Below, piece after piece: positions 45,703 to 50,769 of a stretch of DNA of 64,000 bases. The notes under the pieces were generated by a model. It made no database searches, was not told the DNA's origin, and saw nothing but the letters and a program-made list of their open reading frames with translations. The first letter of the stretch is position 1. Every line of letters starts with the position of its first letter. Where the stretch lies: contig CAYJPX010000004.1 in assembly GCA_964372195.1 (NCBI GenBank), positions 14,432 to 78,431 of the forward strand, in the 5' to 3' direction. The position numbers were made by a program, and so were the translations under genes. Source of the stretch: an uncultured Phycisphaeraceae bacterium. GTDB lineage: Bacteria > Planctomycetota > Phycisphaerae > Phycisphaerales > UBA1924.

Positions 45703-45760
45703 GGATGCTCCTTGCTAGTGCGTGCTGAGACGGGATTCATGCAGCGATGTTCCGTTCTGC

Positions 45761-45866
45761 AGCCCCGGAGGGGCGACCGGAATGTAGCCACGGGTGGAGT
45801 CCGCCGCAGGCGGACGGAACCCGTGGTTGAGTGTGGCATACAGGCAGAGCCCCGGAGGGGCGAGGG
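45761..45866 (+). repeat. Structured palindromic element, copy A (REP-like: GTAG plus hairpin, flanked by GCCCCGGAGGGGCG)
   Basis: AGCCCCGGAGGGGCG-n8-TGTAG-CCACGGGTggagTCCGCCgcaGGCGGAcggaACCCGTGG-n-AGCCCCGGAGGGGCGA. Confidence 0.85.
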
Positions 45867-45914
45867 AATCGCTCTCGCCGTGCTGAGACCCGAGTTCCCG
45901 CTCCCACGATTCCT

Positions 45915-46030
45915 TCGCCCCTCCGGGGCTTATATCGAGGGCAGAGGCTATCCACGGGTTGCGCTTCGTCCGCCGTCGGCGGACTTCGCTCCACCCGTGG
46001 CTACAGCCTTGCGCCCCTCCGGGGCGGGGA
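45915..46030 (-). repeat. Structured palindromic element, copy B (inverted relative to copy A)
   Basis: The reverse complement reads CCCCGCCCCGGAGGGGCG-n-TGTAG-CCACGGGTggagcgaagTCCGCCgacGGCGGAcgaagcgcaACCCGTGG-n-AGCCCCGGAGGGGCGA. Confidence 0.85.
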
Positions 46031-46079
46031 GGCAGCGGATCGCATGTGGCGGAAGAAGCAGGGAATCTCGCACCGCCCA

Positions 46080-47018
46080 TCACAGCCACCCCAGCTTCTG
46101 CAAATCCGCCACCGGCTCCTCAAACGAGCACGAGCCGATCGAGATCGCGAAGGTCTCGCGGGTGTGGGCCAGGTCGAGCGCGTCGAGTGACTGGCGACGC
46201 CACCGGGCGGTGTCTTCCTCGAACGCGAACTGCCCCGGGTCGCGCTCTTCGAGCAGGTCGATGACCATCTCCCGCGAGGCATCGCGCGTGCGCACAAAGG
46301 CGGCCGCCAGGAAGAGGTTGACAAACCCGTGCATCGTCCCGGTCGGGCTGTCGGCCTCGTAGGTGAGCCTCTGCTCGGCCCGTAGCGGGTGGTGCAGGCC
46401 GGCGGTGGCCTTGAACGCCACGCCCGCCCCACGGCAGGCCAGCAGGAAGTCGGCGACCTGCTCGCTGGTGGGGAAGGCATCCGGTGTGACCCCGCCGCAG
46501 CGGATCTTGGCGCACGCCTCACCCCCGGCAAGGGCCGCGATGAACCCGCGGGGGTCGGTGTTGCTCGGCACTTCGAAGAACGGCGTCATATCGTCGGGGA
46601 CCAGGTCGATCGCGTCGTCGATCATGCCCGGGCTGGTGGCCCGCAGCTCGATGGAGTCGACGCGGGCCAGGCCGTGGTCCTCCTCGCCGTGGTGCTCGTC
46701 GAAGGCGTCGATGAGTTCGAGGGCCTCCTCCAGGTCGACATCGACGACCGCCGAGATGCTCCAGGGGTCGAGGATGTCGGCGTGCTCGCGGTAGCCGCTG
46801 GTGGCGTAGGTGCCGGGCATGAGCACCGCGGCGGCCTCGGAGAGCTTGTGGAGCGAGCTTGCGGGGCAGACGATACGCCCGAGCATCGGGGCGTGGGGGC
46901 CCATGCGGGCGCGGGCGTAGTGCTCGCTGGCGTGCGCCATGTCGAGCCGGGCGGGGGGGAAGAGCCCGGCGTAGTCGAAGAGGCCGGTGGTGAGGTTCGT
47001 GAGGGTGCGGGTGGGCAT
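46080..47018 (-). CDS. Conserved hypothetical protein (family not recognised)
   Basis: 312-aa ORF with an ATG start and high GC3. I cannot assign any motif. Confidence 0.6.
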   Translation of the reverse strand: MPTRTLTNLTTGLFDYAGLFPPARLDMAHASEHYARARMGPHAPMLGRIVCPASSLHKLSEAAAVLMPGTYATSGYREHADILDPWSISAVVDVDLEEALELIDAFDEHHGEEDHGLARVDSIELRATSPGMIDDAIDLVPDDMTPFFEVPSNTDPRGFIAALAGGEACAKIRCGGVTPDAFPTSEQVADFLLACRGAGVAFKATAGLHHPLRAEQRLTYEADSPTGTMHGFVNLFLAAAFVRTRDASREMVIDLLEERDPGQFAFEEDTARWRRQSLDALDLAHTRETFAISIGSCSFEEPVADLQKLGWL

Positions 47019-47058
47019 GGGGGGAGGATAGTGCCACCGCCCAGCCGAGTCCGCGTGC

Positions 47059-47202
47059 TCAGCGGGTCTTGACCAGCTTCGCTCTGCGGAGGGTCTCCGC
47101 CCTGAACGCGGCGCTACGGGCCAGCTTGGTGGCCACTTGCTTGGTCCGTACGGCCATCGGCGTGCGATTGGCCTGCTGCGGTGTCACGGTCCTAGAGGCC
47201 AT
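47059..47202 (-). CDS. Possible small basic protein (47 aa) overlapping the end of the ART-like gene
   Basis: The ATG at 47202 overlaps the upstream TAG stop (ATGGCCTCTAG). MASRTVTPQQANRTPMAVRTKQVATKLARSAAFRAETLRRAKLVKTR. GC3 is about 85%. Too short for the ORF track. Confidence 0.35.
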   Translation of the reverse strand: MASRTVTPQQANRTPMAVRTKQVATKLARSAAFRAETLRRAKLVKTR

Positions 47203-47779
47203 CCTCGATCTCCTTGGGCTTCACGAGCCAACAGCCAAGTATACACTCCACATTCCGCACACACAACTGAATATGGGTCTGGTGATACAGCCAACTCCGC
47301 TGCCAGAGCCGCTCCTTGCCGCTGGTCGGCACATAGACGGCCCGACAGGTGTCGATGGGCTCTCCCTCGGCTTCGAGGGCCGTGTAGGCGTACTGGAGTG
47401 TGGCACAATCGAGGTACTTGTCCGCATTTCGGTTGCGGGGGGCGGTCTCGCCGGACTCCTCGAACGCCTTGAGCATCTGTTTGTGGATCGTCACCACCCG
47501 TTTGGAATTGTCGGGATCCAGAAGATCCAAGCACGCCCCCAAGCGGATCATCGCGCCAATGACCGCGATTGGTCGTCGCTGTTTCTTGTACCGATGCGCA
47601 GCCCACTGCCAGGCCTGTTGGGGCGCGTACTCCCAGAAGTAGACTCCATGTCCAAGCCAGTCATTGTTGTTCCTGGAGTACTTGAATGTCCTGTCACCCG
47701 CCACGATCTCCAGCGCGGTGGACTTCAGTGTCCCGTGATACCCAATAACCGTGCGGTGGTAGTCCCTGAATACCGGCAT
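47192..47779 (-). CDS. Putative ADP-ribosyltransferase-fold protein (PARP-like / DUF3990-like)
   Basis: N-terminal VIGYHGT...(28 aa)...LGHGVYFWEYAPQQAWQWA reproduces the H-G-[ST] ... G-x-G-x-Y-F ... A..WA spacing of PARP-type ART and DUF3990 proteins. GC is clearly lower than in the neighbours. Confidence 0.55.
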   Translation of the reverse strand: MPVFRDYHRTVIGYHGTLKSTALEIVAGDRTFKYSRNNNDWLGHGVYFWEYAPQQAWQWAAHRYKKQRRPIAVIGAMIRLGACLDLLDPDNSKRVVTIHKQMLKAFEESGETAPRNRNADKYLDCATLQYAYTALEAEGEPIDTCRAVYVPTSGKERLWQRSWLYHQTHIQLCVRNVECILGCWLVKPKEIEDGL

Positions 47780-47799
47780 TCACGGAGTGTACCAGGGCT

Positions 47800-50640
<2,841 letters not shown>

Positions 50641-50769
50641 GGATCCTCCTTCTTTGGGCCCCGGCGTTGCGGCCGGGCCACAGGTGGGTGAACTTGCCAG
50701 GGGACACCCGTGCCTGGATCGGCTTGCCGCGGTCCGGGCAGCATCGATGTCCACAGCAAATGTAGCCCG

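What the first reader, a model, noticed from the sequence alone, without database searches (positions are those of the whole stretch)
47059..47779. Lower-GC two-gene islet after acnA: a PARP/DUF3990-like ART-fold protein plus an overlapping small basic ORF (toxin-antitoxin- or defence-like)
Hand counts of 60-nt blocks across about 47220-47760 give roughly 48-67% GC, averaging in the high 50s, against about 70% in the flanking genes. That points to foreign origin.

The 195-aa protein starts with VIGYHGT, followed 28 residues later by LGHGVYFWEYAPQQAWQWA. This is the His ... Gly-x-Gly-x-Tyr-Phe spacing of H-Y-[EDQ] ADP-ribosyltransferases (PARP-like), and it matches my recollection of the uncharacterised DUF3990 family.

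Its stop is overlapped (ATGGCCTCTAG) by a 47-codon ORF encoding a very basic peptide, MASRTVTPQQANRTPMAVRTKQVATKLARSAAFRAETLRRAKLVKTR, with host-like GC3.

The pair is squeezed in 20 nt after the acnA stop and about 40 nt before the next gene. It has no promoter space of its own, so it may be read through from acnA. A compact enzyme-plus-small-partner module with atypical composition fits a toxin-antitoxin or anti-phage effector pair, but no function is established.
Basis: inference. Interest (0 to 1): 0.65.

Follow-up and report, generated by a model that had tools for sequence, protein, structure and literature searches.

The report
CmdT-like ADP-ribosyltransferase with small partner
Right after the aconitase gene sits a conserved two-gene module: a probable toxic ADP-ribosyltransferase distantly related to the anti-phage toxin CmdT, plus a tiny helical partner protein. 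The pair belongs to a large, unnamed family found in many bacterial phyla and on plasmids, and it most likely works as a toxin-antitoxin or defence pair.

Summary
On the minus strand, acnA is followed after 20 nt by a 195-aa ORF (47192-47779). Its stop overlaps by 11 nt a 47-codon ORF (47059-47202). The ART gene has 58.7% GC against 70% for the window.

The 195-aa protein has an ADP-ribosyltransferase fold (AlphaFold pLDDT 88; Foldseek hits PARP2, exotoxin A, AcrIF11). It carries invariant His15 and Tyr47, and Gln171 is the probable third catalytic residue. It is not DUF3990. Its only specific relative is CmdT, the mRNA-ADP-ribosylating toxin of CmdTAC.

The small ORF is real. A homologous small protein lies next to the enzyme on the same strand in 86 of 90 related loci. 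It is downstream in Planctomycetota and Myxococcota, and upstream in Proteobacteria, Bacteroidota and on plasmids. dN/dS is 0.19 in its own frame.

No SecB chaperone or CmdA-like antitoxin is present.

The "foreign islet" reading is only partly right. A syntenic relative lacks the pair, yet seven lineages carry it directly after acnA. Low GC is a trait of the whole family.

Best reading: a chaperone-independent, CmdT-like toxin-antitoxin or abortive-infection module. Toxicity, target and neutralisation are untested.

The parts
47800..50754 (-). acnA (aconitate hydratase). This is context only: the upstream gene from which the module is probably co-transcribed. Gene callers start it at 50640.
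   Evidence: Pfam Aconitase E=1e-164 and Aconitase_C E=4e-34. Gene call of 946 aa in L001. The same gene lies directly upstream of the ART in L092, L093, L040 and L014 and in L182 and L183.
47780..47799 (-). 20-nt spacer between the acnA stop and the ART start. There is no room for a separate promoter.
   Evidence: Sequence. No sigma-70-like promoter or intrinsic terminator on the minus strand in 46700-48300.
47192..47779 (-). 195-aa ADP-ribosyltransferase-fold protein, distantly related to CmdT. It is the presumed toxin or effector.
   Evidence: AF2 pLDDT 87.8, pTM 0.83. Foldseek PDB top hits are PARP2, exotoxin A, AcrIF11, PARP4 and NatT. BFVD hits are ART-PolyVal-like domains. PADLOC PD-T4-9_A (CmdT) E=3e-7, with 34/34 family members hitting and a best E of 6e-11. 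PHROG 14664 E=4e-18. 730 homologues. dN/dS 0.12 against L091.
47735..47737 (-). His15 codon (YHGT). This is the NAD-binding histidine of the H-Y-[EDQ] triad.
   Evidence: Invariant in alignment A1. The profile alignment places it on the HGS histidine of PARP2 and on the exotoxin GYHGT.
47639..47641 (-). Tyr47 codon (GVYFWE). This is the triad tyrosine, at the position equivalent to CmdT Tyr41.
   Evidence: Invariant. It aligns to GKGIYFAD of PARP2. The PADLOC alignment offset (protein residues 10-63 to profile positions 5-58) puts it at about profile position 42. CmdT Y41A abolishes toxicity and defence (PMC11618068).
47267..47269 (-). Gln171 codon (THIQLCV). This is the candidate third triad residue, giving H-Y-Q.
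   Evidence: Invariant in A1, together with His169, and kept in distant members (for example THTQIAV in pRL8). It lies in predicted strand 169-174. Its assignment to the catalytic position is inferred from the strand pattern and was not tested.
47059..47202 (-). 47-aa basic partner protein (pI about 12). It is a short member of the conserved small helical partner family and the presumed antitoxin or neutraliser.
   Evidence: It aligns to the partner of the 76%-identical ART in L091 with score 105, against 29.5 +/- 5.4 for shuffles (z = 14). It is in register with the family profile, though weakly (8.6 bits, about the 99th percentile of shuffles). dN/dS is 0.19 in this frame against 0.77 and 2.3 in the other frames. 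A partner ORF is adjacent on the same strand in 86/90 loci. It is called as a gene in six contigs of the same species.
47192..47202 (-). 11-nt overlap (ATGGCCTCTAG) of the ART stop with the partner start. This suggests translational coupling.
   Evidence: Sequence. Overlapping or near-abutting junctions are the rule in related loci.
47019..47058 (-). 40-nt spacer before the next gene (312-aa hypothetical, 46080-47018). That gene is not part of the module.
   Evidence: The 312-aa gene is syntenic with acnA and FAA hydrolase in L103, which lacks the module. It has no Pfam, NCBIfam or PADLOC hit.

Best explanation
This is a two-gene toxin-antitoxin-like module, possibly with an abortive-infection or defence role.

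The 195-aa protein is an NAD+-dependent ADP-ribosyltransferase of the H-Y-[EDQ] clade. Here the triad is His15, Tyr47 and probably Gln171. It is a remote relative of CmdT, the toxin of the CmdTAC system, which ADP-ribosylates adenines in GA dinucleotides of single-stranded mRNA and so blocks translation.

The 47-aa basic helical protein is encoded from an overlapping start. It is the enzyme's cognate partner and most likely binds it directly and keeps it inactive. As with CmdA, it may also help the enzyme fold. If the partner is lost through proteolysis or a stop in translation (for example during phage infection or loss of the genes), the freed enzyme would modify nucleic acid, most likely RNA, and arrest growth.

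In this organism the pair has no promoter of its own and is probably transcribed from acnA.

Shown here:
- the ART fold and conserved His and Tyr
- remote homology to CmdT
- a conserved, selected, adjacent partner whose gene order varies between lineages
- carriage on plasmids
- presence/absence variation at this site

Inferred:
- toxicity
- neutralisation by direct binding
- RNA as the target
- the trigger
For: Fold and catalytic residues:
- AF2 model pLDDT 87.8.
- All top Foldseek PDB hits are ARTs: PARP2 E=2.8e-4, exotoxin A, AcrIF11, PARP4, NatT, KptA.
- Viral hits are ART-PolyVal-like domains.
- A profile search of PDB aligns YHGT and GxGVYFWE to the PARP2 HGS and GKGIYFAD motifs.
- 21/34 members hit Pfam PARP and 13/34 hit Exotox-A at E<=1, with best E-values of 3e-6 and 3.1e-6.

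Relation to CmdT:
- Both PADLOC PD-T4-9_A profiles are hit by 34/34 close members (best E 6e-11) and by 5/5 distant members.
- One alignment spans residues 27-176 against profile positions 29-166 of 187.
- CmdT function is taken from PMC11618068 and bioRxiv 10.1101/2024.02.24.581848.

Partner:
- A profile built here finds a small ORF adjacent on the same strand in 86/90 loci.
- It is downstream in 60 loci and upstream in 28.
- None of the 4,110 candidate ORFs on the opposite strand or elsewhere scored.
- The window peptide is homologous to the L091 partner (z = 14).
- dN/dS is 0.19 in frame.
- The partner fold is three short helices, pLDDT 80.

Mobility:
- 69 plasmids carry a homologue, including 8.5-kb and 13-kb Acinetobacter plasmids and pRL8 of Rhizobium johnstonii. 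The three plasmids examined each have a small ORF just upstream.
- At least 548 species-representative genomes across many phyla carry a homologue.
- There is a PHROG family match.
- The gene is GC-poor relative to its flanks in 43/43 loci.
- None of the 80 metagenome loci recovered with the AcnA C-terminus (52-84% identical) carries an ART, and one syntenic empty site exists.
Against: - No experiment exists on any member of this family.
- Similarity to CmdT is remote and often covers only the N-terminal half.
- The partner shows no detectable similarity to CmdA or to any known antitoxin.
- The partner is strongly basic in 67/77 cases. This is unusual for something that masks a nucleic-acid-binding enzyme.
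- The window's partner is the shortest variant seen. It lacks the third helix and scores weakly against the family profile.
- There is no own promoter or autoregulatory operator space.
- The stable position behind a housekeeping gene in seven lineages is atypical for a selfish TA module.
- The third catalytic residue is Gln rather than Glu, and its role is unverified.
- An AlphaFold prediction of the ART-partner complex could not be run.
Confidence: 0.55

Rival explanations
1. The module is a domesticated regulatory enzyme, not a toxin. In the aconitase-linked Phycisphaerae clade, the ART and its small partner form a physiological switch expressed together with acnA. The partner acts as an obligate folding or targeting subunit. 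The enzyme ADP-ribosylates a specific cellular substrate (a protein or an RNA) in step with TCA-cycle, NAD+ or iron status.
For: - The ART lies 12-132 nt after aconitase in seven lineages: the window, L092, L093, L040, L014, L182 and L183. Downstream genes differ in every case examined.
- Six sequences (window, L091, L092, L093, P0010, P0012) form one clade in the NJ tree.
- No promoter-like site of its own was found.
- CmdA is needed for CmdT to accumulate in soluble form, so a helper role for a small partner has precedent.
- The partner is basic, as expected for a nucleic-acid-binding adaptor.
Against: - The acnA linkage is confined to part of one class. Most of the roughly 90 loci sit in unrelated neighbourhoods or on plasmids.
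- None of the 80 metagenome loci recovered with the AcnA C-terminus carries the module, and one syntenic relative lacks it. It is therefore dispensable.
- Persistent low GC3 and multi-copy genomes fit an accessory element better.
Confidence: 0.2
2. The architecture is the same, but the target is not RNA. The enzyme modifies DNA (as DarT does) or a protein (as exotoxin A or ParT do). The partner still acts as the antitoxin.
For: - Structural neighbours include protein-modifying ARTs (exotoxin A, PARPs, AcrIF11) as well as nucleic-acid ARTs (KptA).
- Similarity to CmdT is remote, so substrate specificity need not be conserved.
Against: - CmdT is the only specific sequence relative.
- There is no Pfam DarT or RES hit.
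- No macrodomain or NADAR reversal enzyme is adjacent.
Confidence: 0.2
3. The pair is a secreted polymorphic toxin with a downstream immunity protein, of the T6SS, CDI or Rhs type.
For: An ART toxin followed by a small downstream gene is the layout of many effector-immunity pairs. RhsP2/RhsI2 is one example.
Against: - The protein is only 195 aa. The ART core starts at about residue 9, which leaves no delivery, PAAR, Rhs or signal domain.
- The gene order is inverted in 28 loci.
- No secretion genes appear in any neighbourhood inspected.
Confidence: 0.03
4. The 47-codon ORF is a chance open frame in GC-rich DNA, and only the ART is a gene.
For: - High-GC DNA has many spurious ORFs.
- The peptide scores only 8.6 bits against the family profile.
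Against: - Homology to the L091 partner has z = 14.
- dN/dS is 0.19 in this frame against 0.77 and 2.3 in the other frames.
- The position and register are the same as in 86/90 loci.
Confidence: 0.02

Closest known systems
CmdTAC (PD-T4-9) toxin-antitoxin-chaperone anti-phage system of E. coli. [quoted passage not shown]
   Same: - The toxin is a protein of about 190 aa consisting of an ART domain only, with an H-Y-[EDQ] triad. All 34 close and 5 distant members tested hit the CmdT profiles.
- The toxin-first gene order matches the order in this window.
- The second gene encodes a small helical protein whose sequence varies widely between homologous systems.
   Different: - There is no SecB-like chaperone gene. 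The PADLOC scan of the next gene was negative, and tblastn with SecB over 102 loci found nothing.
- The partner does not hit PD-T4-9_B or any other model.
- The partner is 43-99 aa and lacks a long chaperone-addiction tail. The window version is 47 aa, against 121 aa for CmdA.
- The gene order is inverted in about a third of loci.
- Similarity to CmdT is remote (E 1e-5 to 6e-11, often partial).
DarTG (ART toxin that ADP-ribosylates DNA, with a macrodomain or NADAR antitoxin)
   Same: It is a two-gene module with an ART toxin of the PARP-like clade, a role in phage defence, and toxin and antitoxin encoded side by side.
   Different: - No DarT (DUF4433) Pfam hit was found.
- The partner is a helical peptide of about 50 aa with no enzymatic domain. 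Neutralisation would therefore be by binding, not by reversing the modification.
Pfam DUF3990
   Same: It belongs to the same Pfam ART clan according to PMC7955679. It is a small bacterial protein.
   Different: No member scanned matches PF13151 at E<=1. This covers the window protein, 33 close relatives and 5 distant relatives.
PARP catalytic domain and exotoxin A / diphtheria-toxin catalytic domain
   Same: - The fold is shared, as are the His (H-G-[ST]) and Tyr (G-x-Y-F) NAD-binding motifs and the following 'h-h-h-L-G-x-C' strand.
   Different: - TM-scores are only about 0.4.
- A helical insert of about 50 residues (89-137) is present.
- Gln occupies the position expected for the catalytic Glu.
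- Pfam scores are below the gathering cut-offs.

Membership tests
H-Y-[EDQ] ADP-ribosyltransferase superfamily (PARP / diphtheria-toxin clade) | Split beta-sheet ART fold | tested here: met
   AF2 pLDDT 87.8. The top 9 Foldseek PDB hits are all ARTs, with probabilities 0.82-1.0 and TM about 0.4. BFVD hits are ART-PolyVal-like domains.
H-Y-[EDQ] ADP-ribosyltransferase superfamily (PARP / diphtheria-toxin clade) | His in an H-G-[ST] motif on strand 1, and Tyr in a G-x-Y-[FY] motif on strand 3 | tested here: met
   H15-G-T and G45-V-Y47-F are invariant in 34 sequences. They align to the PARP2 and exotoxin motifs.
H-Y-[EDQ] ADP-ribosyltransferase superfamily (PARP / diphtheria-toxin clade) | Third catalytic residue (Glu, Asp or Gln) at the start of the fifth core strand | tested here: inconclusive
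   Gln171 (HIQLCV) is invariant and lies in predicted strand 169-174. No alignment obtained here reaches this strand in a solved ART, so the assignment is an inference.
H-Y-[EDQ] ADP-ribosyltransferase superfamily (PARP / diphtheria-toxin clade) | NAD+-dependent ADP-ribose transfer | not testable with these tools
   This needs a biochemical assay.
CmdTAC / PD-T4-9 | CmdT-type ART toxin | tested here: met
   Both PADLOC PD-T4-9_A profiles are hit by 34/34 members at E<=0.001 (best 6e-11) and by 5/5 distant members. This shows remote homology, not close membership.
CmdTAC / PD-T4-9 | CmdA-type antitoxin with a C-terminal chaperone-addiction extension | tested here: not met
   The window peptide and five other partners give no PADLOC hit at E<=1. 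The window partner is 47 aa and ends right after helix 2.
CmdTAC / PD-T4-9 | [quoted passage not shown] | tested here: not met
   The next gene (312 aa) has no PADLOC or Pfam hit. tblastn with E. coli SecB finds nothing below E=1 in 102 ART loci.
Pfam DUF3990 (PF13151) | Match to the family HMM | tested here: not met
   No hit at E<=1 for the window protein, 33 relatives in A1 or 5 distant members.
Type II toxin-antitoxin module | Two small adjacent co-oriented genes kept together across lineages | tested here: met
   86/90 loci have the partner adjacent on the same strand, in either order. Junctions overlap or abut.
Type II toxin-antitoxin module | Patchy distribution linked to mobile elements | tested here: met
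   69 plasmids, 46 of them conjugative or mobilizable. There is a PHROG match. Many phyla are represented. Empty syntenic sites exist.
Type II toxin-antitoxin module | Toxin arrests growth and the partner neutralises it by binding | not testable with these tools
   No experiment is available.
Type II toxin-antitoxin module | Own autoregulated promoter | tested here: inconclusive
   The spacer after acnA is 20 nt, and no sigma-70-like site was found. The scan does not cover planctomycete promoter types.
DarTG | DarT (DUF4433) toxin with a macrodomain or NADAR antitoxin | tested here: not met
   No such Pfam hits were found in the ART, the partner or the neighbouring genes.

The most novel reading that the evidence does not exclude
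In the aconitase-linked Phycisphaerae clade the module may not be a selfish toxin-antitoxin pair. It may instead be a host-integrated switch transcribed with acnA. The partner-controlled ART would ADP-ribosylate RNA, or aconitase or its transcript, and so tie translation or TCA-cycle output to NAD+, iron or oxidative status. This would be a physiological use of CmdT-type nucleic-acid ADP-ribosylation outside phage defence.
Probability: 0.1. Interest if true: 0.8.

Novelty: new variant of a known kind. Interest (0 to 1): 0.6.

Why it matters
ART toxins that modify nucleic acids (DarT, CmdT, RhsP2) have only recently been recognised as agents of bacterial immunity and competition. CmdT is so far known only as part of a three-gene, chaperone-dependent system in enterobacteria.

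This locus leads to a much larger family, which is unnamed:
- at least 730 protein clusters (at 90% identity)
- at least 548 species
- 69 plasmids
- no Pfam or NCBIfam model, and every named record inspected is annotated 'hypothetical protein'

In this family a CmdT-like enzyme is paired with a different, very small helical partner and has no chaperone.

If the family is a toxin-antitoxin or defence system, it adds a widespread type that current defence-finding tools miss. It would also offer a simpler two-component setting for studying how RNA-targeting ARTs are held in check.

The stable placement behind aconitase in one planctomycete clade is unusual and could indicate host co-option.

Tried and rejected
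- **DUF3990 membership.** Rejected by hmmscan.
- **Sequence search of PDB with the single protein.** It gave only noise. The profile search gave weak but consistent PARP2 and exotoxin alignments limited to the N-terminal half.
- **AlphaFold prediction of the ART-partner complex.** I built a linker fusion with a paired alignment (A2).
- **Obtaining a CmdT sequence for a profile-profile comparison.** I looked for SecB-like genes in the phage collection. The only distant SecB hit was a bacterial housekeeping secB on a mislabelled contig. The CmdT link therefore rests on the PADLOC profiles alone.
- **Phage-collection tblastn with the ART.** Only 5 weak partial hits were found. The two neighbourhoods inspected were uninformative.
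- **Partner profile search of the 5.8-billion-protein database.** It returned only 16 short, unnamed proteins with no domains. This gave no functional clue and no fusions.
- **MAFFT alignment of the window peptide with those hits.** The peptide was misaligned, so the partner structure was predicted for a representative (P0121) instead.
- **Rfam scan of the whole window.** No hits.
- **Literature searches.** Searches for DUF3990, DUF3791, NetFlax with ART, and two-gene CmdT-like systems found no description of this family.
- **The 312-aa downstream gene as a third component.** Rejected, because it is syntenic in a relative that lacks the module.
Full report
**1. The observation**

All genes are on the minus strand.
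- acnA (Pfam Aconitase E=1e-164) stops at 47800.
- After a 20-nt spacer, a 195-codon ORF runs from 47779 to 47192.
- Its end (…GAT GGC CTC TAG) overlaps by 11 nt the start (ATG GCC TCT AGG) of a 47-codon ORF that ends at 47059.
- The next gene starts 40 nt further on, at 47018.

Composition:
- The 195-aa gene has 58.7% GC and GC3 76.5%.
- acnA has 67.7% GC and GC3 95.1%.
- The downstream 312-aa gene has 70.1% GC and GC3 93.0%.
- The whole window has 70.0% GC.
- The small ORF is intermediate, with GC3 83%.

Gene callers annotated both ORFs in six contigs of the same species.

**2. The 195-aa protein**

No curated family claims it:
- Pfam gives only a sub-threshold Exotox-A_cataly match (E=0.094).
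- NCBIfam gives nothing.
- DUF3990 is not hit at E<=1 by this protein, by 33 relatives or by 5 distant members.

The database holds 730 relatives at E<=0.001. Most of the best 120 are about 190 aa, and every one that carries a name is called hypothetical.

An alignment of 34 relatives (A1) shows these invariant residues or motifs:
- H15-G-T
- W41-L-G-x-G-x-Y47-F-W-E50
- R79-L-G-x-C-x-D-L
- N116, K121, D124-C, R146
- H169-x-Q171-x-C173
- W184

The fold evidence:
- An AlphaFold model built on A1 is confident (pLDDT 87.8, pTM 0.83).
- Its best PDB neighbours are all ADP-ribosyltransferases: PARP2 (E=2.8e-4), exotoxin A, the ART anti-CRISPR AcrIF11, PARP4, NatT and KptA. TM-scores are only about 0.4.
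- Against viral models it hits ART-PolyVal-like domains.
- A profile search of PDB sequences aligns YHGT to the PARP2 HGS motif. It also aligns GHGVYFWE to GKGIYFAD, and AVLGSMIRLGNC to LLLSEVALGQC.
- 21 of 34 members touch Pfam PARP and 13 touch Exotox-A at E<=1, with best E-values of 3e-6 and 3.1e-6.

The ART-fold, H-Y-[EDQ] reading is therefore correct.

I assign the third triad position to Gln171. It is invariant, lies in predicted strand 169-174, and follows the pattern hydrophobic-Q-hydrophobic. It is also kept in distant members, for example THTQIAV in pRL8. This is an inference, because no alignment reached that strand.

**3. The closest specific relative**

- PADLOC's two PD-T4-9_A profiles are hit by the window protein (E=3e-7).
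- They are hit by all 34 members of A1 (best 6e-11).
- They are hit by five distant members from Rhizobium, Acinetobacter, Segatella, a Clostridia MAG and Psychromonas.
- One of those alignments spans almost the whole protein.

PD-T4-9 is CmdTAC, and its first gene is CmdT. CmdT is an ART-only toxin of the diphtheria-toxin type with an H-Y-[E,D,Q] triad.
- It ADP-ribosylates N6 of adenine in GA dinucleotides of single-stranded RNA and blocks translation.
- Y41A inactivates it (PMC11618068; bioRxiv 10.1101/2024.02.24.581848).
- The offset of the PADLOC alignment puts Tyr47 of the window protein at the position of CmdT Tyr41.

PHROG 14664 (function unknown) is also matched at E=4e-18.

**4. The small ORF is a real, conserved partner**

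I fetched 80 loci from species-representative genomes and added loci from contig look-ups and plasmids. I then built a profile of the small neighbouring ORFs and searched every open frame of at least 25 codons within about 700 nt, on both strands.
- 86 of 90 loci have a match immediately adjacent on the same strand.
- The match is downstream in 60 loci, mainly Planctomycetota and Myxococcota.
- It is upstream in 28 loci: Proteobacteria, Bacteroidota, Verrucomicrobiota and plasmids.
- None of the 4,110 candidate frames on the opposite strand or elsewhere matched.

The shared core reads roughly "M-[ST]-x-E-E-R-h-x-L-L-h-K-A-G-h-h-T". In another branch it reads "A-[RK]-x-x-L-h-x-A-G-I-h-x-x-x-G-K-L-T-x-x-Y".

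The window's peptide, taken alone, scores weakly against this profile (8.6 bits, about the 99th percentile of shuffles). Other evidence supports it:
- It aligns unambiguously to the partner of the 76%-identical enzyme in L091. The score is 105, against 29.5 ± 5.4 for shuffles (z = 14).
- It sits in the family register.
- Between the window and L091, dN/dS is 0.12 for the enzyme. For the small ORF it is 0.19 in its own frame, against 0.77 and 2.3 in the other two frames.

A representative partner is predicted to form three short helices (pLDDT 80). The window version keeps the first two and stops. It is the shortest partner seen.

Partners are basic in 67 of 77 cases (median pI 10.4), but a few are acidic. 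They have no Pfam or PADLOC match. A profile search of 5.8 billion proteins finds only short, unnamed, stand-alone proteins.

**5. What is absent**

- No SecB-like chaperone is present. The next gene has no PADLOC or Pfam hit, and tblastn with E. coli SecB finds nothing in 102 ART loci.
- No CmdA-like antitoxin is present.
- No macrodomain or NADAR gene is present.
- The 312-aa downstream gene is not part of the module. It stays syntenic with acnA and FAA hydrolase in L103, which lacks the pair.

**6. Distribution and origin**

The family is widespread:
- It occurs in at least 548 species-representative genomes from many phyla.
- It occurs on 69 plasmids. These include 8.5-kb and 13-kb Acinetobacter plasmids and the conjugative pRL8 of Rhizobium johnstonii 3841. 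In the three plasmids examined a small ORF lies just upstream.
- Some genomes carry two or three copies.

At this particular site the picture is mixed.

Evidence against a recent arrival:
- The enzyme lies directly after aconitase in the window, L092, L093, L040 and L014, and in L182 and L183.
- That makes seven lineages. AcnA is 60-73% identical to the window's in the four compared, and the downstream genes differ in the cases examined.
- The window, L091, L092, L093, P0010 and P0012 form one clade in an NJ tree.

Evidence that the module is dispensable:
- None of 80 metagenome loci recovered with the AcnA C-terminus (52-84% identical) has the enzyme.
- L103 has the order acnA, p291, p312, FAA hydrolase without it.
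- L102 has a different small gene in that position.

The 3′ side of acnA is therefore a variable site, and the module is accessory. In one clade, though, it has been retained there for a long time, or less likely has been inserted there repeatedly.

The low GC is not a sign of recent arrival. The enzyme gene is GC-poorer than its flanks in 43 of 43 loci (mean −7.3 points). This includes all the acnA-linked loci.

**7. Mechanism**

The most likely reading is a chaperone-independent, CmdT-like toxin-antitoxin or abortive-infection pair.
- The ART is the effector and uses NAD+ to modify a nucleic acid, most likely RNA.
- The small helical partner is made by coupled translation. It binds the enzyme and holds it inactive, and may help it fold as CmdA does for CmdT.
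- Loss of the partner frees the enzyme.

In this organism expression probably rides on acnA transcription. The spacer is 20 nt, and no promoter-like or terminator-like site lies on that strand. That scan is weak evidence for a planctomycete.

Confidence by level:
- ART fold: about 0.95.
- The two genes form a functional unit: about 0.9.
- Toxin plus neutralising partner: about 0.55.
- RNA as the target: about 0.35.

Points against the TA reading:
- The partner is basic.
- The module has no promoter of its own.
- It has stayed behind a housekeeping gene for a long time.

These points keep alive the rival view that, in this clade, the pair has been co-opted for a host function.

**8. Novelty**

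The kind of system (an ART toxin with a cognate partner) is known from DarTG, ParST and CmdTAC. This family has no Pfam or NCBIfam model, and I found no description of it in the searchable literature. It differs from its closest known relative in several ways:
- The partner is unrelated and much smaller.
- There is no chaperone.
- The gene order is interchangeable.

I rate it a new variant of a known kind. It is of moderate to high interest to people working on toxin-antitoxin systems, phage defence and ADP-ribosylation.

Noticed in passing
L013, L015, L016, L018 (ART stop versus partner start); also proteins P0038-P0040, P0092, P0111: In several Gemmataceae and Planctomycetaceae loci the ART reading frame continues 40-60 codons past the conserved domain. 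It overlaps the partner ORF out of frame by 136-163 nt. This gives the enzymes long acidic, Gly-rich tails that look like the alternative-frame reading of the basic partner gene.
   Followed up: partly
L007 5576-5800 and 5985-6209; L073 (two upstream copies): Tandem duplicate copies of the small partner gene lie next to a single ART gene.
   Followed up: no
L028/L029 (one contig, 8.1 kb apart); L015, L018, L047 (one MAG): Some genomes carry two or three copies of the ART-partner module. This fits a mobile or selfish element.
   Followed up: no
L102 1214-1844; L103 4403-5366; window 47019-47799: The region just 3' of acnA is a variable site among close relatives. It holds the ART pair in the window, a zinc-ribbon membrane protein (p291) in L103, and another small putative secreted protein in L102.
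   Followed up: partly
window 46080-47018 (minus strand): A 312-aa conserved hypothetical protein has no Pfam, NCBIfam, PADLOC or PHROG match. It is syntenic with acnA and fumarylacetoacetate hydrolase in a relative (L103).
   Followed up: partly
window 45703-46079: A 377-nt intergenic stretch lies between the FAA hydrolase gene and the 312-aa gene. Its GC is lower (0.57-0.62), and it has no Rfam match.
   Followed up: no
L095 528-1556; L096 3122-4350: An Xre-type HTH gene and an ImmA/IrrE (Peptidase_M78) gene sit next to the ART module in a metagenome contig and on an Acinetobacter pittii plasmid.
   Followed up: no
L099 1989-2342 (Synechococcus phage S-B28): A 117-aa phage protein (labelled DUF6321 in BFVD) resembles only residues 4-67 of the ART, which cover the His and Tyr motifs. 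It may be a truncated or decoy version.
   Followed up: no
window 50641-50754: The longest acnA ORF (984 aa, GTG start) extends 38 codons upstream of the start chosen by gene callers (946 aa). The true start is uncertain.
   Followed up: no
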